Origin: Halanaerobiales bacterium | GTDB lineage: Bacteria > Bacillota > Halanaerobiia > Halanaerobiales > M55B127 | Direction of reading: 5' to 3' | Length of the DNA stretch: 64,000 nt | Assembly (NCBI GenBank): GCA_018399995.1 | Contig: JAGYMU010000003.1 | Coordinates: 2,873-66,872 of the forward strand | In this document: one piece after another, positions 19,553 through 64,000 of the stretch | How positions within the stretch are numbered: the stretch's first letter is position 1 | Layout of the letters: every line of letters begins with the position of its first letter | Notes under the pieces: generated by a model | Seen by the model: the letters and a program-made list of their open reading frames with translations, nothing else | What the model was told of the DNA's origin: nothing | The model's database searches: none | Position numbers and translations under genes: made by a program

Positions 19553-19578
19553 TTTAATCATAAAGGAGGTTAAATAAA

Positions 19579-21300
19579 ATGGACAAAATTAATCTAACTA
19601 TAGATAATAAAGATATAAAAGTTCCCCCGGGTACAACCTTACTAAAGGCGGCTGAAAAAGCTGGTATAGATGTACCTTCACTTTGTTACCATCCTGATTT
19701 AACAATACATGGAGCCTGTAGAGTGTGTGTTATTGAGAACCTAAAAGACAATTCTTTATTGGCCTCTTGTGTAACACCTGTTCAAAATGGTATGGAGTTA
19801 AGTACTCGCAGTATGAAGGCCCGAAAGGCGAGAAGGAGAAATGTAAAACTTTTACTAGCCAACCATCCTAACGATTGTCTGGGATGTGATAGAAATGGGA
19901 GTTGTGAACTGCAGGATATTACACACAACCTCGGTATTTGCAGAGAAGACATTGAAGAAATTCAGGGTGAAGTTCGCAAGGTGCCGCGTGATCAGGTTGG
20001 TCCTGCCTTGAAAAGAGATCCAAATAAATGTATTTTATGTGGGCGTTGTGTTCGGGTTTGTGAAGAGGTTCAAGGGGTTTCAGCTTTACAGTTCAGTAAT
20101 AGGGGTTTTGATTCGATTGTGACAACTGCCTTTGATTTGCCTCAGAGTGAGATAAATTGTGCAAACTGTGGTCAGTGTGCTACGGTATGTCCAGTAGGAG
20201 CGATTACTGAGGTTAGTGAAATTAAAAATGTATGGGAGGCCTTAGAAGATGATAATCTACATGTGGTCTGTCAAACAGCACCTTCTATACAGGCAACTAT
20301 CGGTGAAGAATTTGGATATAAAGCCGGTACGGTCGTAACGGGAAAACTAATTGCAGCTCTGGATAAATTGGGTTTTGACCGTGTATTTTCAACAGAATTT
20401 ACAGCAGATTTAACAATTATGGAAGAGGGAGCAGAGTTTCTTCAGCGTATAACTAAAAATGAGAATTTACCTCATATTACTTCCTGTTGTCCTGGTTGGG
20501 TAAAGTATGCTGAACACAACTATCCTGAGTTATTAAACCATCTATCAAGCGCTAAGTCTCCCCAACAGATGTTTTCTGCTTTATCTAAAACTTACTATGC
20601 TGAGAAAGAAGGCCTTGATCCAGAAAAAATCTATACGGTTTCCATTATGCCCTGTACTGCCAAGAAGTTTGAAAAGGAAAGAGAAGAAATAAATGCATCC
20701 CAATCTAAAGATACAGATGCAGTATTAACGACAAGAGAACTAGCCAGAATGATCAAAGAAGTTGGTATTAAATTTGAAATGTTAGAAGACAAGGAATATG
20801 ATATATTAATGGGTAAACACACGGGTGCCGGCACGATATTTGGAACAACAGGGGGGGTGGCTGAAGCTGCCGTAAGAACTGTTAAAGAAAAACTAACAGG
20901 TGAGCCATTAAACAGATTAGATCTTGGTTTTAAAGGAATAAATAAAGCTGAAGTTGTGATAAATGATAAAATTATAAGAGTTGCTATAGTAAATGGTTTA
21001 AAAAATGCAGAAAAGATCTTAAAAGAAGTGAAAAAAGGTCAATCTAACTATGATTTTGTAGAAATAATGGCCTGTCCACATGGTTGTGTGGGAGGAGGAG
21101 GACAACCCCTCCCGGTTGATGAAAAAACTAAAGAGCTACGTGGGAATAGTCTCTCCCATACAGACCGACAGAGTGTAGTAAGGAGATCACATAAGAATCC
21201 AATGATTGAAAAATTATATTCTGAATATCTCAAAGAACCTAATGGCAGCAAATCTCATCAATTGCTCCATACATCTTATAAAAAGAGAGCTAAGAATTAA
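19579..21300 (+). CDS. hydA: Catalytic [FeFe]-hydrogenase HydA (M3-type with 2Fe-2S and three accessory 4Fe-4S clusters)
   Basis: Canonical H-cluster motifs TSCCPGW, MPCTAKKFE and MACPHGCVGGGGQP. The N-terminus carries plant-type 2Fe-2S and ferredoxin-like Cys clusters. Confidence 0.95.
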   Translation: MDKINLTIDNKDIKVPPGTTLLKAAEKAGIDVPSLCYHPDLTIHGACRVCVIENLKDNSLLASCVTPVQNGMELSTRSMKARKARRRNVKLLLANHPNDCLGCDRNGSCELQDITHNLGICREDIEEIQGEVRKVPRDQVGPALKRDPNKCILCGRCVRVCEEVQGVSALQFSNRGFDSIVTTAFDLPQSEINCANCGQCATVCPVGAITEVSEIKNVWEALEDDNLHVVCQTAPSIQATIGEEFGYKAGTVVTGKLIAALDKLGFDRVFSTEFTADLTIMEEGAEFLQRITKNENLPHITSCCPGWVKYAEHNYPELLNHLSSAKSPQQMFSALSKTYYAEKEGLDPEKIYTVSIMPCTAKKFEKEREEINASQSKDTDAVLTTRELARMIKEVGIKFEMLEDKEYDILMGKHTGAGTIFGTTGGVAEAAVRTVKEKLTGEPLNRLDLGFKGINKAEVVINDKIIRVAIVNGLKNAEKILKEVKKGQSNYDFVEIMACPHGCVGGGGQPLPVDEKTKELRGNSLSHTDRQSVVRRSHKNPMIEKLYSEYLKEPNGSKSHQLLHTSYKKRAKN

Positions 21301-48671: not shown

Positions 48672-48687
48672 TGGCATGGTAATTGCA
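48672..48687 (+). promoter_or_regulatory. Sigma54 (-24/-12) promoter
   Basis: TGGCAT-ggtaa-TTGCA matches TGGCAC-N5-TTGCW in all but one position, 40 nt upstream of the ATG at 48727. Confidence 0.8.
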
Positions 48688-48726: not shown

Positions 48727-49899
48727 ATGAATTTCATAATAAAAAACGCAGAGGTATATTCTCCTGCTTATTTAGGTAAAAAAGATATAATGATTATCGG
48801 AGATAAAATAATAAAAATTCAGGATGAAATCACGATCAATAATAATTTAAATTTTTTAAATTTTCAGCTAATTGATGGAAGCCATAAATATATAGTTCCA
48901 GGTTTTATTGACAGTCATGAACATTTTCTGGGTGGAGGCGGTGAAGGTGGTTTTCATACCCGCACTCCTGAAATTCAACTGACAGATATAACAAAAGGTG
49001 GTGTTACAACGGCTATTGGTTGTCTGGGCACAGATAGTGTGGCTAGAAATTTAAGGGCTCTTTTGGCTAAAACTCGCGCCTTAGAAGAAGAAGGAATTAC
49101 TACATATATGTATACCGGTTCCTATAGAATACCTGTAGACACTATTACAGAAGGAATAAGAGAAGATATAATGATTATTGATAAGGTTATAGGGGTTGGT
49201 GAAATTGCTTTAGAAGACCACAGGTCTTCACAGCCGTGCTATGAAGAGTTTAACAAAGTTGTCGCAGAGGCTAATATAGGTGGTATGCTGGCGGGTAAAG
49301 CTGGTGTGGTTGATGTACATATGGGTAAAGGCAAAAATGGCTTAGAGTATCTTTATAGGATAATTGAAGAGGGAATACTGTCAGTTAAGAACATTTTACC
49401 CACCCATATTAATCGTAACCAAAATCTGTTAGACCAGGGTAAAGATTATACTAAAACAGGGGGTTTTATTGATTTAACGACAAGTTCTTCTAAAGTAAAA
49501 AGCCAAGAAAATCAGTGTGCAGCATCTCTTAAGTATTTATTAGAAGAGGATGTGCCTATCGATAATATCACATTTAGCTCAGATGCTCAGGGGAGTTTAC
49601 CCAAATTTGATAAAAACGGAAATATGATAGGCATGAAAATTGGTCAGGTCAGTTCCCTATATGCTGCTGTGAGAAGTGCGGTCCTCAATTATGGTATTGA
49701 TTTAGAATCTGCTTTAAAGGTTATTACTAAAAATCCAGCTCAGATATTTAAATTAAAAAACAAAGGAAGGGTAAAAGAAAATAATGAGGCTGACTTAGTT
49801 ATCTTAAATAGAGATGATCTGTTAATAGAAAGTGTAATTGCGCGTGGCAAAGTGATGATTAAAAATAAAGAGGCGGTAGTTGAAGGTACCTTTGAATAG
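48727..49899 (+). CDS. iadA: Isoaspartyl (beta-aspartyl) dipeptidase
   Basis: GFIDSHEHFLGGGGEGGFHTRTPE resembles the IadA signature (HVH..GGGGE.G..TRTPE), within an amidohydrolase fold. Confidence 0.8.
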   Translation: MNFIIKNAEVYSPAYLGKKDIMIIGDKIIKIQDEITINNNLNFLNFQLIDGSHKYIVPGFIDSHEHFLGGGGEGGFHTRTPEIQLTDITKGGVTTAIGCLGTDSVARNLRALLAKTRALEEEGITTYMYTGSYRIPVDTITEGIREDIMIIDKVIGVGEIALEDHRSSQPCYEEFNKVVAEANIGGMLAGKAGVVDVHMGKGKNGLEYLYRIIEEGILSVKNILPTHINRNQNLLDQGKDYTKTGGFIDLTTSSSKVKSQENQCAASLKYLLEEDVPIDNITFSSDAQGSLPKFDKNGNMIGMKIGQVSSLYAAVRSAVLNYGIDLESALKVITKNPAQIFKLKNKGRVKENNEADLVILNRDDLLIESVIARGKVMIKNKEAVVEGTFE

Positions 49900-49913
49900 G
49901 GAGGCAGAACAAA

Positions 49914-50846
49914 ATGTCTAATAGAAAAAAATACTGGACAAATAAGATAATTAGAACTATTATTACTGCTATTGGAGTTACCCTAATTGCTTTTCTAATC
50001 TTACATTTAACACCGGGAGATCCGGCTCGGATTATGTTGGGCTCTTATGCTAGTGAAGAAAACTTGGAAGCTGTTAGGGAGAAATATAATTTAAATGAAC
50101 CACTTCACATCCAATATTGGGCCTGGGTATCCAGTCTTGCAAAAGGTGATTTGGGTACTTCAATCCGCTATAATAGATCGGTTAATACATTGATAAAAAA
50201 TAGGATAGGTCCTACTTTAGTCTTAACTCTAACTGGTTTGATTATTTCTGTGGTACTGGGAGTGGTGATGGGTATTCTAGCTGCCCTTAAGCGTAATAGC
50301 TGGCTGGATTATCTAACAACTGTTCAAGCCATATTTTGGATTTCAATACCATCTTTTTGGCTGGGTATTTTATTTTTATATATTTTTGGTTTACAATTAA
50401 GATGGGTACCAATAGCAGGAATGGTGAGTTATACATCTGTAATTTTGCCAGCTCTAAGCCTGGGGTTGCGTCAGGAAGCCTGGTTTGCACGACCGATGAG
50501 GGCTGAAATGCTGGAAGTTTTAAATCAGGAATATATTAGAGCTGCTAAGGCTAAAGGATTAAAATATTACATAGTTGTTACTAAACATGCTTTAAGAAAT
50601 GCCCTTATACCTATCATTACCATGCTTGCTCTACGCTTGCCCTGGATAATTGGTGGCTCAGTGGTTATAGAGGTAGTTTTTTCCTGGGGAGGAATCGGTT
50701 CTCTGCTTGTTAACAGTGTTAAGGCAAGGGATTATCCTGTAGTTCAGGCCATTTTACTTTTAATTTCTATAGCGGTTGTTTTAGCCAACCTTTTTGCTGA
50801 TATTATATATACCTGGGTAGATCCCCGCATAAGAACGGAGGGATGA
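49914..50846 (+). CDS. Peptide/nickel ABC transporter permease (DppB/OppB-like)
   Basis: BPD_transp_1 pattern (EYIRAAKAKGL) and six TM segments. Confidence 0.9.
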   Translation: MSNRKKYWTNKIIRTIITAIGVTLIAFLILHLTPGDPARIMLGSYASEENLEAVREKYNLNEPLHIQYWAWVSSLAKGDLGTSIRYNRSVNTLIKNRIGPTLVLTLTGLIISVVLGVVMGILAALKRNSWLDYLTTVQAIFWISIPSFWLGILFLYIFGLQLRWVPIAGMVSYTSVILPALSLGLRQEAWFARPMRAEMLEVLNQEYIRAAKAKGLKYYIVVTKHALRNALIPIITMLALRLPWIIGGSVVIEVVFSWGGIGSLLVNSVKARDYPVVQAILLLISIAVVLANLFADIIYTWVDPRIRTEG

Positions 50847-51748
50847 GATTGAGTGAAGTCAATGTAGAAGAAATCAAGATGGAACTAGCCAATTTGAAAA
50901 ACAAAAAGTCCAGCCAGCTCAGTCTGGTCTGGAAGAGATTTAAGAGCAATCGACTTGCTCTGCTTGGTTTTGTATTTGTTATGATAATAATATTTATAGC
51001 CATATTTGCTCCTTTTTTAACCCCATATAAACCGTATGCTACTGATCCCAGCAACAGGTTAATGGGACCTTCTCGCACACATTTATTAGGAACAGATTCT
51101 CTGGGTAGAGATGTTTTAACCAGATTATTTTATGGGTCACGTATAGCCCTACAAATTGGAGTATTAATAATTTTATTTGAGGGCTTTATTGGAATTATGA
51201 TGGGGGTTTTATCAGGCTTTTTTGGAGGCATTATCGACAGTATTATTATGAGACTTGTTGATATTTTAAGATCTTTTCCGGTAATTATACTGGCCATGGC
51301 AATTGCGGGAATAATGGGGCAGGGAATATATAATGTTGTTATTGCCCTGGGGATAGTAGGTTGGACTACCTATGCCAGGATGGTAAGGAGCAAAATACTA
51401 TCTATTAAAGAGGCTGATTATATAGAGGCAGGTTACTCGATTGGAGAAAGTACTTATTCAATTATTACAAGATATATTGTGCCTAATGCTATACCAACTG
51501 CAATAGTTATGATCAGTATTATGATGCCTACAGCTTTAATTGCTTCTGCTACACTGAGTTTTCTCGGTTTAGGTGTACAGCCACCAATTCCTTCCTGGGG
51601 GTCAATGGTTGCAGCCGGTAGGAATTATCTTCTGCAAGCACCCTGGATTTCCACTTCAGCAGGCTTTTTTATCATGTTTACTGTTTTAGGATTTAACTTT
51701 ATCGGAGATGGTTTAAGAGATGCACTTGATCCAACCACAAAACATTAA
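50843..51748 (+). CDS. Peptide/nickel ABC transporter permease (DppC/OppC-like)
   Basis: N-terminal OppC-type segment, EADYIEAGYSIGES motif, and ATGA overlap with the upstream permease. Confidence 0.9.
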   Translation: MRLSEVNVEEIKMELANLKNKKSSQLSLVWKRFKSNRLALLGFVFVMIIIFIAIFAPFLTPYKPYATDPSNRLMGPSRTHLLGTDSLGRDVLTRLFYGSRIALQIGVLIILFEGFIGIMMGVLSGFFGGIIDSIIMRLVDILRSFPVIILAMAIAGIMGQGIYNVVIALGIVGWTTYARMVRSKILSIKEADYIEAGYSIGESTYSIITRYIVPNAIPTAIVMISIMMPTALIASATLSFLGLGVQPPIPSWGSMVAAGRNYLLQAPWISTSAGFFIMFTVLGFNFIGDGLRDALDPTTKH

Positions 51749-51768
51749 AAAGTTAAAGGAGATATATA

Positions 51769-52731
51769 ATGAGTGAATTACTCTATATTAAGGATTTGAA
51801 GGTATATTTCAATACTGAAGAAGGTGTGGTAAAAGCCCTGGCAGGAGTAAACTTTGAGATAGTAAAAGGTAGTTTCCACGGTTTAATCGGTGAAACTGGT
51901 TGTGGTAAAAGTGTTACAGGTCTTTCTATCTTAAAACTGCTGGATAATAATGCCTTAATTGAAGGTGGCGAGATTATATATAAAGATGAAAATTTATTAG
52001 ATAAAACGGAAAAACAGATGCAGAAAGATTTTAGAGGAAATGAAATAGCAATGATCTTTCAAGATCCCGGTTCTTCTTTAAATCCTGTCTTTACAATCCA
52101 GGACCAGATTCAAGAATCAGTTAAGATGTATAAGAAGGCATCTAAACAGGAATATAGAAATATAGTAATAGAAGAACTTAAAAAGGTAAAATTGCCTGAT
52201 GTAGAAGGCCTTTTAGATAAATATCCTCATCAGTTAAGTGGGGGCATGAAGCAGAGGGTTATGATAGCAATGATGCTGGCCTGCAATCCCAATCTTTTAA
52301 TAGCAGATGAACCCACAACTGCATTAGATGTTTCAATTCAAGCTCAGTTTTTGCAGGTTTTGAAAAATTTAAAAGATAAATTCGATATGACCGTTTTATA
52401 TATCACCCATGATTTGGCAGTAGTTAGTGAGATTTGTGATTATGTATCAGTTATGTATGCAGGCAGGATTGTAGAAAATGTCCCGGTTAGAGAACTCTTC
52501 AAAAACCCTGTCCATCCTTATAGTTATAAGTTAGTTCATTCGGTTTTAGGTGTCAAAACATTTTTAGAAGATCTAGAAGAGATACCAGGTTCTGTACCAA
52601 GATTAATAGATCCACCTTCAGGATGTAGATTCCACCCTCGCTGTGAAGAAGCAATAGATATTTGCAAAACAAAGGTACCACAACTTAAAAAGATAGGTAA
52701 AAATCATTATGTAGCCTGTCATAGAAGGTGA
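51769..52731 (+). CDS. Peptide ABC transporter ATP-binding protein (DppD/OppD-like)
   Basis: GETGCGKS Walker A, LSGGMKQR signature, LIADEPTTALD Walker B, and a C-terminal oligopeptide Cys motif. Confidence 0.93.
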   Translation: MSELLYIKDLKVYFNTEEGVVKALAGVNFEIVKGSFHGLIGETGCGKSVTGLSILKLLDNNALIEGGEIIYKDENLLDKTEKQMQKDFRGNEIAMIFQDPGSSLNPVFTIQDQIQESVKMYKKASKQEYRNIVIEELKKVKLPDVEGLLDKYPHQLSGGMKQRVMIAMMLACNPNLLIADEPTTALDVSIQAQFLQVLKNLKDKFDMTVLYITHDLAVVSEICDYVSVMYAGRIVENVPVRELFKNPVHPYSYKLVHSVLGVKTFLEDLEEIPGSVPRLIDPPSGCRFHPRCEEAIDICKTKVPQLKKIGKNHYVACHRR

Positions 52732-53693
52732 TAAAATTGGCAAATACTATAATTGAAACCAAGGATTTAAAAAAATATTTTGATACACTCAAAGGCCCCT
52801 GCAAAGCTGTTAATAAAGTTAATTTAAGAATTAAACAGGGAGAGACATTTGGCCTGGTTGGAGAGTCGGGATGCGGCAAATCTACACTTGTACGCACAAT
52901 TTTAAAATTAATTGAACCCACTTCAGGACAAATCTTTTTAGATGGTGTAGATATTACTGATTATAAGAAAAAAAAGTTGATGGCATTGAGAAAAAAAATG
53001 TCACTTGTATTTCAGGATCCTCATTCTTCTTTAAATCCGAGGATGACAGTTTTTGATACCCTGTCAAGACCTCTAAAAATACATAACTTAACTAAAAATA
53101 ATGAAGAAACAATGATTGAAATTACAAAGTTACTGAAGTTAATGGGCATGCAGCCGGAACATATGATTAGATTCCCCCATGAATTAAGTGGAGGACAGAA
53201 ACAAAGAATTGGTATTGCGCGGGCTCTAGCAGTCAAACCTGAGCTAATATTTTTAGACGAACCAACTTCTGCTCTTGATGTATCGGTACAAACCAAAATA
53301 TTAAAGTTATTGAATAAAACAAAAAAGATCAGAGACCTCACTTATTTTTATATTTCACATGACATTAATTTAATCAGGGTTGTATCTGATCGTATTGGTG
53401 TGATGTATTTAGGTCAAATAGTTGAAATTGGGGAGGTTGATCTAATATATAATAATCCCATACACCCCTATACAAAAGGCTTATTCGCATCTGTACCTGA
53501 ACCTGATCCTGATAAGAAGATTAAAGGCGAGCCATTGAGCGGTGAGGTGCCCAGTCCTGTTAATCCACCCATGGGATGTAGTTTTGCACCACGATGTCCC
53601 TTTGTAGAGCCGAAATGTAGAGAGGAAAAACCAAAACTTAAACTACTTTCAGATGGAAGGAGGGTTGCCTGTCATAAGGATAACTTAAGATAA
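52728..53693 (+). CDS. Peptide ABC transporter ATP-binding protein (DppF/OppF-like)
   Basis: GESGCGKST, LSGGQKQR, FLDEPTSALD. Confidence 0.93.
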   Translation: MIKLANTIIETKDLKKYFDTLKGPCKAVNKVNLRIKQGETFGLVGESGCGKSTLVRTILKLIEPTSGQIFLDGVDITDYKKKKLMALRKKMSLVFQDPHSSLNPRMTVFDTLSRPLKIHNLTKNNEETMIEITKLLKLMGMQPEHMIRFPHELSGGQKQRIGIARALAVKPELIFLDEPTSALDVSVQTKILKLLNKTKKIRDLTYFYISHDINLIRVVSDRIGVMYLGQIVEIGEVDLIYNNPIHPYTKGLFASVPEPDPDKKIKGEPLSGEVPSPVNPPMGCSFAPRCPFVEPKCREEKPKLKLLSDGRRVACHKDNLR

Positions 53694-53731
53694 GAATAGC
53701 TTTTTTAAAAATCTAATTAGGAGGTTTTAAT

Positions 53732-55276
53732 GTGAAAAAGACTATTTCATTATTTTTAACATTTTCATTATTGATTGGTTTGATGATCTTTTCTGTAGTT
53801 GTCACAGCTCAGGAAGATGACACCGTTCATATTGCTATTCAAACTGAACCCTCTAAATTAAATCCCATTACCTATCAAGATACTGAAACAGACTTTGTAT
53901 TAAGTCAAATCTGTGATCCTCTAGTAGAGGTTTCAACTGAGGGTTCTTATACAGCAGAGGGAGCTATTATCGAAGATTATAGGATTGAAGAGGGTGGTAA
54001 GGTATATGTTTTTGAAATTAGAGAAGGGATTAAATTTCATAATGGAGAAGATCTGACAGGTGAAGATGTAAAATTCACATACGAATCCTTAAAAGATAAA
54101 GAACTTGCTTCACCACATAGAAGTTATTATGAAGGTATTGAAGATATAGTCTTAGTTGATGAATATACTGTGAAAGTTATCCTGGGAGATACAAATGTTA
54201 CATTTTTGACTAATGCCAGGTTACGTAATCATGTATTACCTAAGGATTATATTGAAGAAGTAGGTTGGGATGGGTATGAGAAACATCCTGTTGGTAGTGG
54301 GCCATATGAGTTTATCGAACATGATCCTGGTCAAAGGATAGTCCTGAAGAAATTTGAAGATTTTTGGGGAGAGAATGCAAAGATAGACAATCTAATATTT
54401 AGATTTTATCCAGAGACGACTTCAGCAGTTATGGCTTTACAGACCAAAGAAATAGACTTTATTGCAGAGATGCCGGCTGAAGTATTCGAAGATCTAAAAA
54501 GCAAAGAAGATGTGGGCTTAAAATTTGGCACATATAATAAATTTGAGGATCATAGGATTTGCTTCAATAAGCGCGAAGATAGTATATTTAGTGATGTACG
54601 CTTGCGGAAAGCAGTTGCTTATGCTGTCAATAGATATGAACTTATTGAGTTAACACGAGGAGATATGGCTGTACCGGCTGCTGGTAGGGTTCCCAGCTTC
54701 CATCCTGCTACTGCACCCAATGCTAATGCCTATGAAGAAAATCTTGAAAAAGCGCAAGAATTAATGGCAGAAGCAGGTTATCCTGATGGATTTAAGACAA
54801 AGATTTTTGCTCCTTCCGGTTATAGAGAAAGGGTTCTGGAAGTTCAGCAGATCCAGCAGCAGTTAGCAAGAATTAATATTGATCTGGAGGTTGTAACATT
54901 AGAATGGGGTACTTATCTAGATGTTACAGCAGATGGCCAGGCACCGATGTTTAGAGAAAGATGGTCAGCAGGTGTCCCTTCCCCTTATAGTTTTGTAGAA
55001 AACTGGCATTCTGAATCAGGATGGAATGCGATATTTGGTACTTATGAAAATGATGAGGTTGATGCTTTAATTGATTTAATCAAGGTCACCACAGATCAAG
55101 AAGAGAGATGGCAGTTATATAGAACCGTACAAAATCTAGCTATGGATGAAGTTGCCTGTTATCCATTATATTGGCCTGTAATAGGTGAAGCATATAATGA
55201 TGAAATTACCATTCCAGAAGATGTATGGAATGTCTTCAAAAGACCGATTTATAATGTTGATAAATGGCATTTTTAA
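53732..55276 (+). CDS. Family-5 peptide/nickel substrate-binding protein, secreted
   Basis: N-terminal signal/TM helix and SBP_bac_5-like length and motifs (GSGPYEF). Confidence 0.9.
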   Translation: MKKTISLFLTFSLLIGLMIFSVVVTAQEDDTVHIAIQTEPSKLNPITYQDTETDFVLSQICDPLVEVSTEGSYTAEGAIIEDYRIEEGGKVYVFEIREGIKFHNGEDLTGEDVKFTYESLKDKELASPHRSYYEGIEDIVLVDEYTVKVILGDTNVTFLTNARLRNHVLPKDYIEEVGWDGYEKHPVGSGPYEFIEHDPGQRIVLKKFEDFWGENAKIDNLIFRFYPETTSAVMALQTKEIDFIAEMPAEVFEDLKSKEDVGLKFGTYNKFEDHRICFNKREDSIFSDVRLRKAVAYAVNRYELIELTRGDMAVPAAGRVPSFHPATAPNANAYEENLEKAQELMAEAGYPDGFKTKIFAPSGYRERVLEVQQIQQQLARINIDLEVVTLEWGTYLDVTADGQAPMFRERWSAGVPSPYSFVENWHSESGWNAIFGTYENDEVDALIDLIKVTTDQEERWQLYRTVQNLAMDEVACYPLYWPVIGEAYNDEITIPEDVWNVFKRPIYNVDKWHF

Positions 55277-58302: not shown

Positions 58303-59487
58303 ATGTTAAAGAAAGAAATTATTAATAATAAGGCAGAAGAAATACAAAAAGATTTAGTAAAATGGAGGAGAAGAATTCATCAAAACCCCGAAACGGGTTT
58401 TAATGAGGTAGAAACTTCTAATTTTATAGCAGAAAAGTTAGAAGATTTTAATATTCCATACCAGAGGGTATGTAAAACAGGTATAACTGGCTTAATTAAA
58501 GGTAGTAAACCTGGTGAAACCTTGGCTATTAGGGCAGATATAGATGCTTTAGCTATGGAAGAAAAAAATAATGTAATTTATAAATCGAAAAATAAGCAGG
58601 CTATGCATGCCTGTGGTCATGATGGTCATACTACAATTTTATTGGGAACAGCCAAACTTTTATCTAAAATGAAAGAAAAAATTAGGGGAAATGTAAAATT
58701 ACTATTCCAACCAGCCGAAGAGGGGCCAGGAGGAGCAAAGCCAATGATTGAAGCAGGTGTGTTAAATAATCCAGATGTGGATTATATGTTAGCTCTACAC
58801 ATCAACCCTGATATAGAAAAAAACATGGTAGGGATCAAACAAAATGTAATGATGGCAGCACCAGATATTTTCGAAATTACTATCAAAGGCAAGGGGGCAC
58901 ATGGAGCCCATCCCGAAAAGGGAGTAGATCCTATATCTATAGGTGCTCAAATTGTATTAGGGTTACAGCATATAAAGAGTAGAGAGCTAAATACACATCA
59001 ACCTGTTGTGATTAGTTGTGGTTCGTTTCAGGCGGGCAATGTATTTAATGTAATACCAGAAGTAGCTAAACTTAAAGGGACTGTACGAACATTTGATCAT
59101 GAGCTGCGGCAAAAAATTAAAACAAGGATTATTGAAATGGTTGAAAATATTACAAAAGCATATCGAGCAGAATGTAGTTGTGATTATGATTTCCGATATC
59201 CTCCTCTAATTAATGATAAAGAGCTGACCAGGCTGATGAAACAGGTTATAAAAAAAGATCTGGGAGAAAAGTACCTTTATGAAATTGCACAACCATCTAT
59301 GGGAGGAGAGGATTTTGCTTATTTTGCCCAGAAGGTACAGTCAACATATATGCTTTTGGGTACCAGAAATGAAGAGATGGGGATAACTCATGCACTTCAT
59401 TCACCTTATTTCGATTTTGATGAGGACATATTAAAACAGGGGGTTAAACTTTTTGTTCATGGAGTTAATAGAATATTAAATTGTTAA
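58303..59487 (+). CDS. M20D amidohydrolase (N-acyl-L-amino-acid amidohydrolase/hippuricase family)
   Basis: HQNPETGF, MHACGHDGH, FQPAEEG motifs. ATG 58303 follows an AAGGAAGGGAG RBS; the ORF is open from a TTG at 58273. Confidence 0.9.
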   Translation: MLKKEIINNKAEEIQKDLVKWRRRIHQNPETGFNEVETSNFIAEKLEDFNIPYQRVCKTGITGLIKGSKPGETLAIRADIDALAMEEKNNVIYKSKNKQAMHACGHDGHTTILLGTAKLLSKMKEKIRGNVKLLFQPAEEGPGGAKPMIEAGVLNNPDVDYMLALHINPDIEKNMVGIKQNVMMAAPDIFEITIKGKGAHGAHPEKGVDPISIGAQIVLGLQHIKSRELNTHQPVVISCGSFQAGNVFNVIPEVAKLKGTVRTFDHELRQKIKTRIIEMVENITKAYRAECSCDYDFRYPPLINDKELTRLMKQVIKKDLGEKYLYEIAQPSMGGEDFAYFAQKVQSTYMLLGTRNEEMGITHALHSPYFDFDEDILKQGVKLFVHGVNRILNC

Positions 59488-59956
59488 AATAATTATCATA
59501 AAAACAATATATGTTGTAAATCTTTATTAATTTTTAAACTGATGAAAAATTATAATATAAGGCCATTTTAGTTATTAATTGGTATGCTATGTGAACAAAG
59601 ATATAATTGTAAAATTTATCAAAGTATAATAAATTTGATCACAGATTTAAATACATACCTAGAAAAGTTTTAATTTCAACAATATTCCCAATGTTCCTAC
59701 AAGAATAGGATGAAAGGCAAATAACCTTTATTTATTTAGTGAAAAAAATAACATAAACAATAGATTGGCATTGATTTCTATTGTAATTGAAGGTATAATT
59801 ATAATAGATAAAGGGTAAATATTTAAATATAAGATTATTTTTCAATATTATTTGAATAAAAATTAAAGTGATTAACAAAATTGAATTATTAACTTTTATC
59901 TCAGAGTATGATGTATCAAAAATACAAGTTATCTAAAAATTATTCTTTTTATAATT

Positions 59957-62608
59957 TTGTTTTTCACTAAAATAAATTTTAGCAAAGGGGCGATTAGTAT
60001 TAATAACTTAGTTACAACTATAAAAGATTCCTGTCATGAGTGTTATGCTTGTGTAAGGAACTGTCCCGTAAAAGCCCTACAGGTTAAGGATGGCCAGGCA
60101 GAGGTGATTGATCACCGCTGTATTAATTGTACTAATTGTGTAACTATATGTTCACAAGGTGCTAAAGAAGTAAAAAACTATAAAGAGCACATAAGCTCCT
60201 TATTAAAAACAGGAAAAGAAAATATTGTTATTGGTTTGGCTCCCAGCTTTCCTGCTTTCGACACAGATTTGAGCTTAAAAGATTGGCAGAACATATTACT
60301 GCAGGCAGGTTTTAAAGAGGTTTATGAGGTTGCCTGGGGAGCTCAATTAATAATTGATGAATATAAGAAATACTTAAAAGAAAGTGATGAACCTGTTATA
60401 AGCAGCGCCTGTCCGGTTGTTGTTAATTATATTAGGAAATATTATTCTGAGTTAGTAAAATATTTAGCACCGTTTGTTTCACCAATGGGTGCCCTTGTTA
60501 GATATTTAGAAGAAATATTGGATTCTGAAGAGAAAATTGTTCTGGTTGGCCCCTGTCATGCAAAAAAATCAGAATTTTCCGAAAGCAGTATGGTTGAGGG
60601 AGTTTTGACATTTACAGAGTTTTTTGAAATGTTAAATGAAGATTTCAATATTAATTTTTCAAAAAAGAATAGCAGTATTGAAAATGACGTTAATCCAGCC
60701 TCAATAATAACGGATTATTCCCGCCAGATTCCTATAGCAGGAGGCCTAAAAGACGCATTAGTAGAAAATACAGATGATCAATATATTAAGGTTGAAGACA
60801 GTAAAAAATTATGCGCGCTTTTTGATATGATGTCAGAAGGGGAAATAAGACCTGATTTTGTTGATGCACTATTTTGCGATGGCTGTATAAACGGTGTGGA
60901 TTTAACTGAAAAGAGTCATTTTAAAAAGGAAATAGCCGTTAATCAATTTATCAACAAGAGAGAAAGGACTGAGCAATTAAAATATAAGGCTGAGTTGGCT
61001 TCAGATATAGACTATAGCTTTCTGTACACTGAAGACTATCAAAAACTAGAAGAACCAAGTCAAGCAGAAATTTGGAAAATTCTTGCAAAGACTAATAAAT
61101 ACTGTGAAGATGATTTATTAAACTGTGGGGCATGTGGCTATGATTCATGTGAAGAAAAAGCAGTTGCTGTTTATCAAGGTATAGCAGAAGTTGAAATGTG
61201 TTTACCTTTTTTACTTGATGAAAGAAGAAATGAAGTAGAAGATATTAAAAACTTAAATCTGGAACTTGATAGTATTATTAATTCTTCCTATGATGGAATG
61301 TTATTAGTTGATAATAAGTTAAGTGTTGAAAAAGTAAATGATGCTTATTTAGATATGATTGACCTCACAGAAGAAGAGTTGCTTAATTTAGACCTTTATG
61401 AATTAGAGGAAGAAAAAATTATTTATCCCTCGGCAGCTTTGTTAGCTTTTAAGGAAAAAAGGGATATTACTATTGTACAAAATACAGATAATAAAAAACT
61501 ACTAACTACTGCTACTCCAGTCTTATCTGACGATAATGAAATTATCAGAGTTATTGTTAACGCCAGGGATATAAATGAACTAGATGTGAGTGTAGACACA
61601 AATTTATCAGGTCATGAGAAAGTAAAATTATCAATTAAAGATGGTGACAATAAGCATAATAAGATGTCTCATATTGTCTGTAAATCAGATAAAATGAAAC
61701 GGATATTAAATATTGCTGAAAAAATCGGTGATACAAATTCTACAGTTTTAATTACGGGTGATTCAGGAGTTGGTAAAGAAGTAATAGCTAGATATATTCA
61801 CAAATTAGATAATAAAAGAGAAGAACTTGTAAAGATTAATTGTGGCGCAATACCAGAGAGGTTACTAGAATCGGAGTTATTCGGTTATGAAACCGGTGCA
61901 TTTAGTGGGGCAAGAAGAGAAGGCAAACCCGGCTTAATTGAAAAAGCTAATAATGGTACTTTGTTTTTAGATGAAATTGGAGAGATGCCTGTCAATATGC
62001 AGGTAAAATTACTTCAAGTTATTCAGGAACATCGTCTGACAAGAATTGGTGGAGTTGAGGCAATTGAAGTTAATTTTAGATTGATAGCAGCTACAAATAG
62101 AAATTTAAAGAAAAGCGTAGAGGCGGGAGAATTTAGAGAGGATCTCTTTTATAGGTTGAATGTGATACCAATAAACATACCACCTTTGTCTGAAAGGCCG
62201 CAGGACATAATACCTTTATTTGAATATTATATAGATAAATTTAATGAAAAATATAATAAAAAAGCTCATTTTGACCCCGGGGTTAAGGATATTTTAATAA
62301 AATACGATTGGCCGGGCAATGTGAGGGAAATGATTAACTTAATTGAGAGATTGGTAGTGACCAGTGAAAAATCACAGATTATTACTGTAAAGAATGTTGA
62401 AGAGTTTCTTAATACCAAAAAAAATGAGGGGGAGGACAGTAATATAGTAGTTAAGGATATTGTTCCTTTAAGAGAAGCGGTTGATTTAGTTGAAAAAGAA
62501 CTGCTCAAGTTGGCTAAAGGCAAGAATAAGACTACTTATGAGATTGCTGATATACTGGGTGTTAATCAATCCACTGTAGTAAGAAAGTTAAAAAAGTACT
62601 TTGATTGA
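59957..62608 (+). CDS. Fusion protein: 2x[4Fe-4S] + sensory-type [FeFe]-hydrogenase H-domain + Cx2Cx4Cx16C + PAS + sigma54 AAA+ activator + HTH
   Basis: CHECYACVRNCP / CINCTNCVTIC. H-domain motif variants SSACPVV, GPCHAKK, FCDGCINGV. CGACGYDSC-x16-C. PAS-like segment ~aa 430-545. GDSGVGKE, ESELFGYETGAFSGA, FLDEIGE, RLIAATN. C-terminal HTH (TTYEIADILGVNQSTVVRKLKKY). The exact start codon is uncertain (TTG 59957 is the first in-frame start). Confidence 0.85.
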   Translation: MFFTKINFSKGAISINNLVTTIKDSCHECYACVRNCPVKALQVKDGQAEVIDHRCINCTNCVTICSQGAKEVKNYKEHISSLLKTGKENIVIGLAPSFPAFDTDLSLKDWQNILLQAGFKEVYEVAWGAQLIIDEYKKYLKESDEPVISSACPVVVNYIRKYYSELVKYLAPFVSPMGALVRYLEEILDSEEKIVLVGPCHAKKSEFSESSMVEGVLTFTEFFEMLNEDFNINFSKKNSSIENDVNPASIITDYSRQIPIAGGLKDALVENTDDQYIKVEDSKKLCALFDMMSEGEIRPDFVDALFCDGCINGVDLTEKSHFKKEIAVNQFINKRERTEQLKYKAELASDIDYSFLYTEDYQKLEEPSQAEIWKILAKTNKYCEDDLLNCGACGYDSCEEKAVAVYQGIAEVEMCLPFLLDERRNEVEDIKNLNLELDSIINSSYDGMLLVDNKLSVEKVNDAYLDMIDLTEEELLNLDLYELEEEKIIYPSAALLAFKEKRDITIVQNTDNKKLLTTATPVLSDDNEIIRVIVNARDINELDVSVDTNLSGHEKVKLSIKDGDNKHNKMSHIVCKSDKMKRILNIAEKIGDTNSTVLITGDSGVGKEVIARYIHKLDNKREELVKINCGAIPERLLESELFGYETGAFSGARREGKPGLIEKANNGTLFLDEIGEMPVNMQVKLLQVIQEHRLTRIGGVEAIEVNFRLIAATNRNLKKSVEAGEFREDLFYRLNVIPINIPPLSERPQDIIPLFEYYIDKFNEKYNKKAHFDPGVKDILIKYDWPGNVREMINLIERLVVTSEKSQIITVKNVEEFLNTKKNEGEDSNIVVKDIVPLREAVDLVEKELLKLAKGKNKTTYEIADILGVNQSTVVRKLKKYFD

Positions 62609-62723
62609 TGCAGTCTTGCATTAAGGTGATGTAGTTGTGCATTAATGATAAAGCCTGTTATTACAACTAAACGTGATTAATAATGTGAAAAAAATATCTA
62701 AAGTCGATGCGCGACTGCATTAT
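62609..62723 (+). repeat. Three copies of a 16-19 nt motif GATG-N6-TGCATTA (candidate enhancer/UAS sites)
   Basis: tGATGCAGTCTTGCATTAA (core 62609-62624), tGATGTAGTTGTGCATTAA (62630-62645) and cGATGCGCGACTGCATTAT (62708-62723). Copies 1 and 2 are offset by exactly 21 bp. Confidence 0.5.
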
Positions 62724-62877
62724 ATAGTGTTTTTTTAGAAAAGAGTGGTGAATTATTAGGATATTTTTATTCTTATTCATTATTTAAAAAATATATTAAG
62801 GTTAAAAATACTTAAAACAGGCTATTTTGACTAAAAAATGAACATTTTAAGGATTTAAATCTAAGATATTTACATTC

Positions 62878-62893
62878 TGGTACAATATATGCA
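62878..62893 (+). promoter_or_regulatory. Sigma54 (-24/-12) promoter candidate
   Basis: TGGTAC-aatat-ATGCA has GG and GC at the canonical spacing (TGGCAC-N5-TTGCA). It lies 91 nt upstream of the ATG at 62984 and 155-270 nt downstream of the repeats. Confidence 0.7.
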
Positions 62894-62983
62894 TAATATA
62901 ATAAACAGAAGTAATTAGGCAAGTTAGTGTTTTTTTTAACAAAATAAGAGAATTTATTCACAAAAAAGGAGGTTTGTATTTAG

Positions 62984-63394
62984 ATGAATAGTGATAAGTT
63001 TTTAGACAGGGCTCATGATATTCAGGACACTTATGGTTATATTCCAGAAGGTGAAATAGACAAAATGGCCAAAGAATTTGATGTACCGAGAGCGAAGGTA
63101 TATGGCAGCATCCGTTTTTATTCGATGTTTTATACGGAACCGACGGGTAAGTATATCATTAGGGTATGTGACAGTCTTTCCTGTCACATTAATGATTCAA
63201 AATCTATTGTGGAAAGTATAAAAAATTATTTAGGCATTGATGATGGAGAAACTACAAAAAACAAAAAATTTACACTTGAAGTGGTAGAATGTCTAGGACA
63301 CTGTGGAGAAGGTCCGGTTATGATGGTAAATGATGAAATGTATACTCATGTTAGTGAAAATATGGCCTTAGATATTATCAAAGATTGCACATAA
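62984..63394 (+). CDS. NuoE-like [2Fe-2S] subunit (second copy)
   Basis: CDSLSCHIN ... CLGHCGEGPV four-Cys pattern. Paralogous to 16329..16817. AAGGAGG RBS. Confidence 0.9.
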   Translation: MNSDKFLDRAHDIQDTYGYIPEGEIDKMAKEFDVPRAKVYGSIRFYSMFYTEPTGKYIIRVCDSLSCHINDSKSIVESIKNYLGIDDGETTKNKKFTLEVVECLGHCGEGPVMMVNDEMYTHVSENMALDIIKDCT

Positions 63395-63411
63395 AAGGAG
63401 GTAAGCTTTAA

Positions 63412-64000
63412 ATGAGTGAAAAATATTTTTTGAAAGAAAACATGGTAAAAAGTATTTCGGATTATGATTTTTCTGCTTTTAAAAAAGCCCTTAAGATGGG
63501 ACAAAGTAAGGTTGTAAAAGAAATTGAAGATTCAGGTTTAAAAGGAAGGGGCGGTGCGGGCTTTCCTACTGGCTTTAAATGGAAGCTTGCCTCACAGCAA
63601 GAATCTGATTTGAAATATTTTATCTGTAATGGTGATGAAGGTGAACCGGGAACTTTTAAAGACCGCTTATTAATGGAAGATAGTCCCGTTAGGGTTTTAG
63701 AAGGGATAATGATAGGTGCATTTGCAGTTGGTGCCAGCCAGGGATATATATATATAAGAGGAGAATATGCAAAGTCAATTAAAATATTTAATGACATAAT
63801 TAAGGAAGCTAAAAAAGAACAGGTATTAGGTGAAAATATATTCGGCAGTGATTTCAGTTTTGACATGAAACTTATTAAAGGTGCCGGTGCTTATGTATGT
63901 GGAGATGAAACTTCTTTAATTAATTCGATAGAAGGTCACAGAGGAATATCTCGTATTAAACCACCTTATCCTATTGAAAAAGGACTATTCGATAAACCTA
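63412..64000 (+). CDS. NuoF-like flavoprotein subunit (second copy), 5' partial, runs off the window
   Basis: My own translation from ATG 63412 reads MSEKYFL...GLKGRGGAGFPTGFKWK...ICNGDEGEPGTFKDR...GAGAYVCGDETSLINSIEG. It follows an AAGGAGG RBS. It is absent from the ORF track because there is no stop inside the window. Confidence 0.9.
   Translation, partial: MSEKYFLKENMVKSISDYDFSAFKKALKMGQSKVVKEIEDSGLKGRGGAGFPTGFKWKLASQQESDLKYFICNGDEGEPGTFKDRLLMEDSPVRVLEGIMIGAFAVGASQGYIYIRGEYAKSIKIFNDIIKEAKKEQVLGENIFGSDFSFDMKLIKGAGAYVCGDETSLINSIEGHRGISRIKPPYPIEKGLFDKP

What the first reader, a model, noticed from the sequence alone, without database searches (positions are those of the whole stretch)
59957..62608. 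Sensory-type [FeFe]-hydrogenase domain fused directly to a sigma54 enhancer-binding protein: candidate one-component H2-responsive activator
Seen in sequence: one 883-aa ORF contains the following, in order.
- Two ferredoxin-type CxxCxxCxxxC motifs (C26-C65).
- A region aligning to the H-cluster domain, with SSACP (C152), GPCHAKK (C200) and FCDGC (C307/C310). These sit at the positions of the canonical motifs TSCCPGW, MPCTAKKFE and MACPHGC, which the bona fide HydA at 19579-21300 in this same window carries in full.
- A Cx2Cx4Cx16C motif (C390, C393, C398, C415).
- A PAS-like segment.
- A complete sigma54 AAA+ module (GDSGVGKE, GAFSGA loop, FLDEIGE).
- A C-terminal HTH.
The residue before the cluster-ligating Cys in motif 1 is Ala rather than the proton-relay Cys of catalytic enzymes.
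Established knowledge: H-domain plus Cx2Cx4Cx16C plus PAS is the hallmark of putative sensory (HydS, group C) [FeFe]-hydrogenases. As far as I recall, their described signalling partners are kinases, phosphatases or chemotaxis modules.
Inference: here the sensor is wired straight into a bEBP, so H2 or redox state at the H-cluster could gate sigma54 open-complex formation without a phosphorelay. I am not aware of any experimentally characterised example.
Basis: partly seen in the sequence, partly recalled or inferred. Interest (0 to 1): 0.88.

Follow-up and report, generated by a model that had tools for sequence, protein, structure and literature searches.

The report
Hydrogenase-like sensor fused to sigma54 activator
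One gene joins a non-catalytic-looking [FeFe]-hydrogenase domain to a sigma54 transcription activator that sits, with its own binding sites and a sigma54 promoter, directly in front of a hydrogenase operon; this makes it a strong but untested candidate for a single-protein hydrogen sensor that switches hydrogenase genes on or off.

Summary
ORF 59957-62608 (+) encodes 2x[4Fe-4S] ferredoxin motifs, an [FeFe]-hydrogenase H-domain, a Cx2Cx4Cx16C cluster, PAS, a sigma54 AAA+ module and an HTH (Pfam E 2e-37 for the H-domain, 2e-66 for the AAA+ module).

It is not a one-off. At least 120 database clusters share the full architecture across Halanaerobiales, Thermoanaerobacterales, Negativicutes and Peptococcaceae. 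All 16 cluster cysteines are invariant, and the proton-relay Cys is never present.

In 8 of 8 PAS-type loci examined, the gene lies directly upstream of a NuoE-NuoF-HydA hydrogenase operon. Between them are 2-3 conserved TAATGCA-N4-TGCATTA palindromes and a -24/-12 sigma54 promoter. In this window the target is a predicted non-bifurcating NADH-dependent (group A6) hydrogenase, followed in the close relative by rex.

In a PAS-less relative, hydF-hydE-hydG sit immediately upstream of the regulator and a [NiFe] uptake hydrogenase sits downstream. This argues that the domain receives a [2Fe] subcluster and that the signal is H2.

Caveats: the clade has a one-residue deletion next to the bridging Cys (C-x-G-C), no member has been characterised, and H2 responsiveness is inferred.

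The literature I could search holds only a domain listing (Nie 2019). I rate it a new variant of a known kind, interest about 0.7.

The parts
59957..62608 (+). Gene for the H-domain/sigma54 activator fusion (883 aa from TTG 59957; the likely real start is ATT at 59993 or 59999, after the SD at 59984-59990)
60023..60163 (+). N-terminal 2x[4Fe-4S] ferredoxin-like domain (aa 23-69; C26/29/32/36 and C55/58/61/65)
   Evidence: Pfam Fer4_10/Fer4_7. The cysteines are invariant wherever the N-terminus is present in the 121-sequence alignment.
60236..60895 (+). [FeFe]-hydrogenase H-domain (aa 94-313) with putative H-cluster ligands C152, C200, C307 and C310
   Evidence: Pfam PF02906, E 2.4e-37. Aligns to CpI. 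The four Cys plus A95, P96, S175, P176, G198, P199, K203, E206, L305 and G309 are invariant. AF2 pLDDT 84.9; the top 50 Foldseek hits in the PDB are all [FeFe] hydrogenases.
61118..61207 (+). C-terminal Cx2Cx4Cx16C [4Fe-4S] motif (aa 388-417), running into a long helix (aa 417-443) that enters the PAS domain
   Evidence: Pfam PF04060; invariant Cys; AF2 secondary structure
61262..61579 (+). PAS domain (aa 436-541), followed by a low-confidence linker (aa 545-570)
   Evidence: Pfam PAS_9/PAS; AF2
61673..62437 (+). Sigma54-interaction AAA+ module and lid (aa 573-827): Walker A 601-608, GAFSGA 647-652, Walker B 670-676
   Evidence: Pfam PF00158, E 2.1e-66, and PF25601. The loop is GAFSGA or GAFTGA, 64:57 in the family.
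62468..62599 (+). C-terminal HTH_50 DNA-binding domain (aa 838-881)
   Evidence: Pfam PF18024
62608..62621 (.). Candidate upstream activator site 1: palindrome ATGCAGTCTTGCAT, overlapping the stop codon
62629..62642 (.). Candidate upstream activator site 2: ATGTAGTTGTGCAT, 21 bp from site 1
62707..62720 (.). Candidate upstream activator site 3: ATGCGCGACTGCAT
62878..62893 (+). Candidate sigma54 -24/-12 promoter TGGTACAATATATGCA, ending 91 nt before the hydC start codon
   Evidence: the equivalent site is present in 8/8 PAS-type loci
62946..62963 (.). Weak Rex-operator-like site AAGAGAATTTATTCACAA (11/14 to TTGTGAA-N4-TTCACAA) between the promoter and the RBS
   Evidence: same position in L001, L018 and L023; tentative
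62984..63394 (+). First target gene: NuoE/HydC-like [2Fe-2S] subunit (136 aa)
   Evidence: Pfam PF01257, E 2.5e-44
63412..64000 (+). Second target gene (cut by the window end): short NuoF/HydB-like flavoprotein. It has no N-terminal [2Fe-2S] domain and carries the PG-T-F-K non-bifurcating signature.
   Evidence: the full operon hydC-hydB(410 aa)-hydA(570 aa, NCBIfam group A6)-rex is seen in the 92% ortholog L001

Best explanation
The gene encodes a one-component, sigma54-dependent transcription activator whose regulatory module is a group-C-like ('sensory') [FeFe]-hydrogenase.

Shown by sequence and comparison:
- The complete domain chain is present.
- There is no receiver domain.
- All cluster-ligand cysteines are invariant across the family.
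- Conserved palindromic binding sites and a -24/-12 promoter lie directly upstream of a hydrogenase operon.

Inferred:
- The H-domain carries a real H-cluster, matured by HydEFG.
- H2 binding or oxidation changes the redox or conformational state of the H-cluster and accessory clusters.
- The change passes through the Cx2Cx4Cx16C domain, the helix at aa 417-443 and the PAS domain to the AAA+ module, controlling its oligomerisation and ATPase activity.
- The active oligomer, bound at the three TGATGCA-N4-TGCATTA sites (62608-62720), loops to sigma54-RNA polymerase at 62878-62893 and drives open-complex formation for hydC-hydB-hydA-rex.

In this organism the target is predicted to be a non-bifurcating NADH-dependent hydrogenase. 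NADH-driven H2 production is only feasible at very low H2, so I predict, with low confidence, that the activator is ON at low H2 and OFF at high H2. The sign of the response is not determined by anything I could compute.
For: Architecture and family:
- Domain architecture.
- At least 120 90%-identity clusters have the identical architecture at 41-92% identity, including complete genomes.
- In 121 sequences the 8+4+4 cysteines are invariant, as are G198, P199, K203, E206, A95, P96, S175 and P176. Position 151 (CpI C299) is A/P/T/S and never C.
- Published group C/D hallmarks are matched.
- The fold model is confident, and the 50 listed (best-scoring) PDB matches are all [FeFe] hydrogenases.

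Gene context:
- The regulator is immediately upstream, on the same strand, of NuoE-NuoF-HydA in the window, L001, L018, L020, L021, L022, L023 and L025.

Binding sites and promoter:
- A sigma54 site scoring 7-11 of 11 and 2-3 palindromes of one consensus occur in all eight loci. The first two palindromes are about 20 bp apart.
- In the window, perfect ATGC-N6-GCAT occurs 4 times against 0.72 expected, and two of the four lie in this 113-bp stretch.
- Over 112 kb of related loci, 11 of 14 perfect sites lie in this intergenic region.

H2 link:
- In L024 a PAS-less family member is preceded, 12 bp away, by hydF-hydE-hydG. All three are NCBIfam equivalogs above cutoff. It is followed by a sigma54 promoter and a [NiFe] hydrogenase with cytochrome b and hyp genes.
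- L026 repeats the [NiFe] link.

Target identity:
- The L001 HydA matches NCBIfam 'NADH-dependent [FeFe] hydrogenase group A6' at 885 bits against a cutoff of 765.
- The short HydB carries the T/K signature of Losey 2020.
Against: - No member of this clade has been studied. I found no biochemical work on any H-domain with the C-x-G-C spacing next to the bridging cysteine. A 2024 paper doubts that group C1 proteins keep the H-cluster motifs.
- The conserved Lys/Glu and the four Cys are, from my own recollection, also kept in eukaryotic Nar1/NARF proteins, which bind only [4Fe-4S]. Conservation alone therefore does not prove a [2Fe] site.
- For TamHydS the C-terminal cluster is not reduced by H2, so the signalling route is unclear even in studied relatives.
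- rpoN and hydEFG are not in this window, so their presence in this genome is assumed.
- The window's sigma54 site is imperfect (9/11, TGGTAC...ATGCA), and the ortholog's is 7/11.
- The hydEFG linkage comes from a relative only about 39% identical in the sensor region and lacking PAS.
Confidence: 0.6

Rival explanations
1. Redox, iron-sulfur or O2 sensor rather than H2 sensor. The H-domain binds only a [4Fe-4S] cluster, Nar1-like, without the [2Fe] subcluster. The four or five clusters report the ferredoxin/NAD(P)H redox poise or oxidative damage, and that state gates the AAA+ module.
For: - One-residue deletion in the loop carrying the bridging Cys (C-x-G-C), shared by 23/25 EBP-, 31/38 kinase- and 5/5 GGDEF-fused proteins but by only 1/70 PAS-only HydS.
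- Published doubt about the group C1 motifs.
- Fe-S-cluster redox sensing by a sigma54 activator has a precedent in OrpR (listed).
- The target operon carries rex and a Rex-like operator, so it sits in a redox regulon.
Against: - hydF-hydE-hydG, whose only known role is to build the [2Fe] subcluster, are adjacent to and co-oriented with a family member. No other H-domain gene lies within 7 kb.
- The targets are always hydrogenases, of two unrelated classes, and their common denominator is H2.
- The second-sphere residues that contact the CN ligands in CpI are invariant.
Confidence: 0.25
2. The fusion protein regulates something other than the adjacent operon, or is only an autoregulator, and the neighbourhood is coincidental.
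For: In L028 the regulator lies tail-to-tail with the hydrogenase genes. In L026 no sigma54 site lies between the regulator and the [NiFe] genes.
Against: The same gene order, the same palindromes and a sigma54 site are conserved in 8/8 PAS-type loci spanning 42-92% protein identity and several orders. The palindrome is nearly confined to this intergenic region.
Confidence: 0.07
3. The N-terminal part is a working, catalytic hydrogenase that happens to be fused to a regulator.
For: TmHydS and TamHydS retain low H2 turnover.
Against: The proton-relay Cys is absent in 121/121 sequences, and M353 and M497 are replaced. The NCBIfam hydrogenase models score far below their cutoffs (151 against 450). 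The H-domain is compact, as in sensory enzymes.
Confidence: 0.03

Closest known systems
TmHydS (Thermotoga maritima) and other PAS-only group C putative sensory [FeFe] hydrogenases
   Same: N-terminal 2x[4Fe-4S], a compact H-domain, Ala at the C299 position, Gly at the M353 position, Cx2Cx4Cx16C, then PAS. The genes sit next to multimeric [FeFe]-hydrogenase genes.
   Different: - TmHydS-type proteins end after PAS (about 565 aa) and have no known output partner. Here PAS continues into a sigma54 AAA+ module and an HTH.
- L3 is D-x-L-F-C-x-G-C here and E-x-M/L-x-C-x-G-G-C in 69/70 PAS-only representatives.
Histidine-kinase-fused H-domain proteins (HydDB group C1 type, e.g. Swol_1040 of Syntrophomonas wolfei) and GGDEF-fused ones
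   Same: These are the best non-EBP matches to the sensor region (36-42% identity, 264-291 bits). They share the C-x-G-C variant and the Fer4-H-FeS core. Swol_1040 has been proposed to regulate H2 production.
   Different: Their output is a phosphorelay or c-di-GMP. Here the output is direct ATP-driven activation of sigma54-RNA polymerase, with the target promoter next door.
HoxBC-HoxJ-HoxA (Cupriavidus necator) and HupUV-HupT-HupR H2-sensing systems
   Same: H2 sensing controls transcription of hydrogenase genes. From my own knowledge, HoxA is an NtrC-family activator acting at a sigma54 promoter. The L024/L026 relatives sit in front of [NiFe] uptake hydrogenases in the same way.
   Different: Those systems use a regulatory [NiFe] hydrogenase, a separate kinase and a response regulator, which is three or four proteins and a phosphorelay. 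Here an [FeFe]-type domain and the activator are one polypeptide.
One-component metal- or cluster-sensing bEBPs: NorR (non-haem iron, NO), OrpR (Fe-S cluster, redox), FhlA (formate, formate-hydrogenlyase genes)
   Same: An N-terminal sensory module directly controls the AAA+ domain without phosphorylation. OrpR and NorR use iron centres (titles and abstracts).
   Different: None of them uses a hydrogenase domain or has multiple clusters. Their signals are NO, redox or formate.
TherJR_2992 of Thermincola potens (Nie et al. 2019, supplementary table)
   Same: Listed there as an EBP with an N-terminal 'Fer4-Fe_hyd_lg_C-FeS', GAFTGA and HTH_8. This is the PAS-less form of the same family.
   Different: It is only a table entry. 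No regulon, binding motif or function was assigned.

Membership tests
[quoted passage not shown] | H-domain (PF02906) with the four H-cluster cysteines | tested here: met
   Pfam E 2.4e-37. C152, C200, C307 and C310 align to CpI C300, C355, C499 and C503 and are invariant in 121 sequences.
[quoted passage not shown] | Proton-relay Cys (CpI C299) absent; M353 replaced by a small residue | tested here: met
   A151 (A/P/T/S in the family, never C); G198 invariant; criteria taken.
[quoted passage not shown] | N-terminal 2x[4Fe-4S], C-terminal Cx2Cx4Cx16C, then PAS | tested here: met
[quoted passage not shown] | Canonical L3 motif spacing C-x-x-G-C | tested here: not met
   C307-D-G-C310. The spacing is two residues in 23/25 EBP-fused representatives, against three in group A, group D and 69/70 PAS-only HydS.
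[quoted passage not shown] | Phylogenetic placement within group C | tested here: inconclusive
   The protein scores far better against PAS-, kinase- and GGDEF-linked H-domains (250-290 bits) than against the window's group D HydS (130 bits, 27% identity) or group A HydA (58 bits). The NJ tree has no reference HydDB sequences, and bootstraps do not resolve the sub-clades.
[quoted passage not shown] | Binds an H-cluster and reacts with H2 | not testable with these tools
   There is only indirect support: hydFEG lies adjacent to a family member in L024.
Bacterial enhancer-binding protein (sigma54 activator) | Sigma54-interaction AAA+ domain with Walker A/B and the GAFTGA loop | tested here: met
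   PF00158, E 2.1e-66, full length 1-167/168. The loop is GAFSGA; Ser and Thr occur 64:57 in the family.
Bacterial enhancer-binding protein (sigma54 activator) | C-terminal DNA-binding HTH and cognate upstream activator sites | tested here: met
   HTH_50. Three palindromes at 62608-62720, conserved in 8 loci. Actual binding was not tested.
Bacterial enhancer-binding protein (sigma54 activator) | -24 GG / -12 GC promoter at the target | tested here: met
   TGGTACAATATATGCA at 62878. Related loci score 7-11 of 11, and the site is perfect in H. orenii and Abyssisolibacter.
Bacterial enhancer-binding protein (sigma54 activator) | rpoN present in the genome | not tested
   rpoN is not in the window. 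A second EBP (46556-48586) with a perfect sigma54 site at 48672 suggests an active sigma54 regulon.
PrdR (best NCBIfam hit) | Score above the equivalog cutoff | tested here: not met
   373 bits against a cutoff of 795. The match covers only the PAS-AAA+-HTH part.
Catalytic [FeFe] hydrogenase (groups A/B) | Score above the NCBIfam cutoffs; TSCCP / MPC / ExMxCxxGC motifs | tested here: not met
   FeFe_hydrog_B1 scores 151 bits against a cutoff of 450. The motifs are altered.

The most novel reading that the evidence does not exclude
This would be the first one-component H2-sensing transcription factor: an [FeFe] H-cluster wired directly to a sigma54 AAA+ motor.

In this organism it may also form a thermodynamic AND gate with Rex. 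The activator would read pH2. Rex, encoded in the same operon and with a Rex-like operator over the 5' leader, would read NADH/NAD+. Together they would allow expression of a non-bifurcating NADH-dependent hydrogenase only when both terms of its reaction quotient (high NADH, low H2) make NADH-driven H2 formation feasible.

The same sensor-activator family has been re-used to control [NiFe] uptake hydrogenases. There it appears to keep hydEFG solely to mature the sensor.
Probability: 0.4. Interest if true: 0.85.

Novelty: new variant of a known kind. Interest (0 to 1): 0.7.

Why it matters
Putative sensory [FeFe] hydrogenases were proposed more than a decade ago. As of 2026 there is still no demonstrated signalling partner or output, and the latest study calls identifying the partners critical.

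In this family the output is in the same polypeptide, and its DNA sites, promoter and target operon are next door. H2 sensing by an H-cluster could therefore be tested with simple readouts:
- ATPase activity;
- in vitro sigma54 transcription;
- a reporter in E. coli, which has sigma54, with HydEFG co-expressed.

The family would also give a compact genetic H2 biosensor. It would explain how fermenters choose between bifurcating and NADH-dependent hydrogenases. The [NiFe]-linked relatives suggest cross-talk between the two hydrogenase worlds.

Tried and rejected
1. The genome-contig scan with the single protein returned mostly AAA+-only matches. Only L001 was a true ortholog.
2. L004 (Bacteroidales), reported as covering residues 23-881, is two separate genes: a GAF-PAS EBP next to a PAS-only HydS with a SpoIIE phosphatase. 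It is not a fusion.
3. PrdR, NifA and the other NCBIfam names all score below their cutoffs and reflect only the AAA+ module.
4. Monophyly of the EBP-fused H-domains is not supported by the NJ tree with 100 bootstraps (best-split Jaccard 0.53-0.58). I make no claim about a single origin of the fusion.
5. I looked for hydE/F/G and rpoN in the window and found neither.
6. An Rfam scan of 59300-64000 at E <= 0.1 found nothing, so there is no riboswitch or leader RNA of a known family.
7. The TGGCAGAATGACTGC match at 16763 lies inside the NuoE gene of the other hydrogenase operon. I dismissed it as chance, because matches to the relaxed pattern are no more frequent than expected.
9. The Greening 2016 / HydDB paper is not held. 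The C1/C2/C3 definitions come from secondary citations and my own knowledge.
Full report
**1. The observation**

The ORF 59957..62608 (+) is real and uninterrupted. Pfam finds, in order:
- a 2x[4Fe-4S] ferredoxin-like domain (aa 23-69);
- Fe_hyd_lg_C (aa 94-313, E 2.4e-37);
- the PF04060 'FeS' motif (aa 388-417);
- PAS (aa 436-541);
- Sigma54_activat (aa 573-739, E 2.1e-66, full-length match);
- the AAA+ lid and HTH_50 (aa 838-881).

The bona fide HydA at 19579-21300 carries the canonical TSCCPGW / MPCTAKKFE / MACPHGC motifs.

Two refinements apply.
- The third H-cluster motif has two residues, not three, between its cysteines (C307-D-G-C310).
- The annotated TTG start is probably wrong. A strong Shine-Dalgarno (59984-59990) is followed in frame only by ATT codons. 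The 92% ortholog has the same arrangement, and the DNA upstream of it does not align. Other homologues start 9-12 residues before the first Cys.

**2. It is a family, not an accident of this genome**

A search of 5.8 billion proteins gave at least 120 clusters (90% identity) with the identical full-length architecture, at 41-92% identity. They come from Halanaerobiales, Halothermothrix orenii, Iocasia, Thermoanaerobacteraceae, Tepidanaerobacteraceae, Lucifera (Negativicutes), Peptococcaceae, Mahellales and others. Where named, they are called 'sigma 54-interacting transcriptional regulator'.

In a 121-sequence alignment:
- the eight ferredoxin cysteines are invariant (where the N-terminus is present), as are the four H-cluster cysteines and the four C-terminal cysteines;
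- A95-P96, S175-P176, G198-P199, K203, E206, L305 and G309 are also invariant. These align with CpI residues around the H-cluster (APS, SPQ, MPCxxKxxE) in the HMMER alignment;
- the position of the proton-relay Cys is A/P/T/S, never Cys.

An AlphaFold model of residues 1-430 is confident (pLDDT 84.9, pTM 0.85). Its 50 best PDB matches are all [FeFe] hydrogenases (TM 0.56-0.66). No group C or D structure appears among the solved ones.

The full-length model shows a continuous helix (aa 417-443) running from the last cluster ligand (C415) into the PAS domain. The PAS-AAA+ linker (aa 545-570) is of low confidence.

**3. Where the sensor domain belongs**

An exhaustive HMMER search with residues 1-545 against 1.84 billion representatives found 633 clusters at E <= 1e-30. 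Among the best 150:
- 16 carry the sigma54 AAA+ module. Six have PAS (about 845-883 aa) and ten lack PAS (about 717-765 aa), of which the one scanned (P0127) has HTH_8 and another (P0122) HTH_50;
- about 38 are fused to HisKA/HATPase, some with REC or GAF;
- 5 are fused to GGDEF;
- about 70 are PAS-only proteins of about 565 aa, the TmHydS type.

The best non-EBP matches are the kinase- and GGDEF-fused proteins. They rank first even though the PAS-only proteins share an extra domain with the query.

The C-x-G-C spacing is found in 23/25 EBP-fused, 31/38 kinase-fused and 5/5 GGDEF-fused representatives. It is found in only 1/70 PAS-only ones, and not in the window's group A HydA or group D HydS.

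The sensor is only 27% identical to the window's group D HydS, and 30% over a partial match to its HydA. A rough NJ tree separates the output-fused set from the PAS-only set. Bootstraps do not support a single origin of the EBP fusions.

The protein therefore has the published group C hallmarks. It belongs, however, to the uncharacterised, output-fused branch with an altered L3 motif. A 2024 study doubted whether group C1 proteins keep the H-cluster motifs at all.

**4. What it controls**

In the window the gene is followed by a 375-bp spacer. Then come a NuoE-like gene (62984-63394) and a NuoF-like gene (63412 to the window end). The 92% ortholog L001 shows the whole operon:
- hydC (136 aa);
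- hydB (410 aa);
- hydA (570 aa; NCBIfam 'NADH-dependent [FeFe] hydrogenase, group A6', 885 bits against a cutoff of 765);
- rex (above cutoff).

The short HydB aligns to residues 168-551 of T. maritima HydB. It therefore lacks both the N-terminal [2Fe-2S] domain and the C-terminal 2x[4Fe-4S] domain. It has Thr and Lys at the two positions where bifurcating enzymes have Ala/Glu and Met. That is the non-bifurcating signature of Losey et al. 2020.

The same regulator-then-hydrogenase order is found in H. orenii, a Thermoanaerobacteraceae genome, Lucifera, Abyssisolibacter, Halanaerobium sp. Z-7514 and a Peptococcaceae MAG. In four of these the HydB is instead fused to a GltD-like domain and, in the three checked (L020, L021, L023), carries the bifurcating-type signature.

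**5. The cis elements**

The spacer contains three copies of a palindrome, at 62608, 62629 and 62707. The consensus across loci is TAATGCA-N4-TGCATTA. It also contains a -24/-12 element, TGGTACAATATATGCA, at 62878-62893.

- Perfect ATGC-N6-GCAT occurs four times in the 64-kb window against 0.72 expected. Two of the four are in this 113-bp stretch.
- In 112 kb of related loci, 11 of 14 perfect sites lie in the equivalent spacer.
- All eight PAS-type loci have 2-3 such palindromes directly after the regulator's stop codon, the first two about 20 bp apart. All eight also have a sigma54-type site (7-11 of 11 consensus positions; perfect in H. orenii and Abyssisolibacter) 36-132 nt before the first operon gene.

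This is the classical bEBP layout. Its conservation across orders is the strongest evidence for the regulatory link.

No Rfam family matches the region.

**6. Is the signal H2?**

This cannot be shown by computation, but one context speaks to it. In L024, a PAS-less family member (P0127, 730 aa) is preceded by hydF, hydE and hydG on the same strand with a 12-bp gap. All three are NCBIfam equivalogs well above their cutoffs. It is followed by a sigma54 promoter (TGGCATAGTAATTGCA), a small ORF and a [NiFe] hydrogenase operon (small and large subunits, cytochrome b, HycI, HypA/B/F). No other H-domain gene lies in the 16-kb locus. L026 repeats the [NiFe] link, and L027 the NuoE/NuoF link.

The maturases' only known role is to build the [2Fe] subcluster, and they are linked here to the regulator. 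The targets are hydrogenases of two unrelated classes. Together these make H2 the most economical signal.

It remains an inference, drawn partly from relatives about 39% identical in the sensor region.

**7. Mechanism proposed**

- Shown: the domain chain, the absence of a receiver domain, and the sites, promoter and target.
- Inferred: H2 acting at the H-cluster changes the state of the sensor. The Cx2Cx4Cx16C domain, helix and PAS transmit the change. The AAA+ module assembles at the palindromes and remodels sigma54-RNAP at the promoter.

The sign is unknown. The target here is predicted to be an NADH-dependent, non-bifurcating enzyme that can make H2 only at very low pH2. I therefore predict activation at low H2.

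A Rex-like operator (62946-63, 11/14) lies between the promoter and the RBS in four Halanaerobiales loci, and rex is in the operon. This suggests combined control by pH2 and NADH/NAD+. It is tentative.

**8. Comparison and novelty**

Ten full-text searches found no paper that links sensory [FeFe] hydrogenases with sigma54.
- Nie et al. 2019 list Fer4, Fe_hyd_lg_C and FeS among EBP regulatory domains, and have one table row (TherJR_2992). They give no regulon or function.
- Hydrogenase reviews and the latest HydS work mention only PAS, kinases, phosphatases or chemotaxis modules, and state that the partners are unknown.

I therefore rate this a new variant of a known kind: a group-C-like sensor with a new, self-contained output, and a bEBP with a new input. 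It is widespread, so the window itself is not special.

Its value is that it makes the H2-sensing question directly testable.

**9. Limits**

- rpoN and hydEFG were not seen in this window.
- Phylogeny used no curated reference set.
- The literature library lacks most subscription papers, for example Greening 2016, Poudel 2016 and Calusinska 2010.

Noticed in passing
window 59957-60001: The regulator probably starts at a non-canonical ATT codon (59993 or 59999) after the SD AAAGGGG (59984-59990), not at the TTG that opens the ORF. The 92% ortholog has AAAGGAGG followed by ATT ATT GTT at the same place, with no ATG/GTG/TTG in frame, and the sequence upstream does not align.
   Followed up: partly
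window 13315-21300: There is a second, different putative H2-sensing cluster. It has an anti-sigma-like HATPase (13315-13749), a group D-type HydS without PAS (13761-15125; SSSCP, TPCPAK, canonical CPTGC), DRTGG (15153) and PHP (15484). Then comes a bifurcating-type operon: NuoE, HATPase, a [2Fe-2S] protein, a 600-aa HydB with the PG-A-F-M signature, and HydA (16329-21300). The genome thus pairs each of its two multimeric hydrogenases with its own sensor type.
   Followed up: partly
window 62946-62963; L001 12966, L018 13121, L023 10930; rex at L001 16372-16992 and L018 16528-17172: rex is the fourth gene of the target operon in L001 and H. orenii. A Rex-operator-like site (11-12 of 14 to TTGTGAA-N4-TTCACAA) lies between the sigma54 promoter and the RBS in four Halanaerobiales loci. 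Only 6 sites this good exist in the 64-kb window.
   Followed up: partly
window 46556-48586, 48672-48687, 48727-55276: A second sigma54 activator (676 aa; no Pfam family matched its N-terminal part at the 1e-6 cutoff used) is followed by a perfect TGGCATGGTAATTGCA site. After that come an amidohydrolase gene (48727-49899) and a run of same-strand ORFs to 55276 that I did not annotate.
   Followed up: no
L018 (H. orenii CP001098) 12817-13052: A 50-nt unit is repeated 4.7 times at 98% identity, between the activator-binding palindromes and the sigma54 promoter of the hydrogenase operon. It lengthens the UAS-promoter distance to about 300 bp. Its function is unknown.
   Followed up: no
L024 3483-16193; L026 209-6493: PAS-less H-domain/sigma54 activators sit directly upstream of [NiFe] hydrogenase operons (small and large subunits, cytochrome b, hyp genes). 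In L024, hydF-hydE-hydG are fused into the regulator's own transcription unit. This implies an [FeFe]-type sensor controlling a [NiFe] enzyme.
   Followed up: partly
L020, L021, L023, L025 (downstream of the regulator): In four loci the target operon's NuoF/HydB is fused to a GltD-like NAD(P)H/FAD domain (1010-1037 aa). In the three loci checked (L020, L021, L023) it keeps the bifurcating-type PG-A-F-M signature. In the window, L001, L018 and L022 it is a short 408-431-aa form with PG-T-F-K.
   Followed up: partly
L004 9518-19446 (Bacteroidales MAG): This is an unfused arrangement: a GAF-PAS sigma54 activator next to a PAS-only HydS, a SpoIIE-type phosphatase, AdhE and a small [FeFe] hydrogenase. 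It is a possible multi-protein counterpart of the fusion.
   Followed up: no
representatives P0126, P0131, P0206, P0232, P0258: H-domain plus Cx2Cx4Cx16C is fused directly to a GGDEF diguanylate cyclase domain. I did not see this output type mentioned in the hydrogenase papers I read.
   Followed up: no
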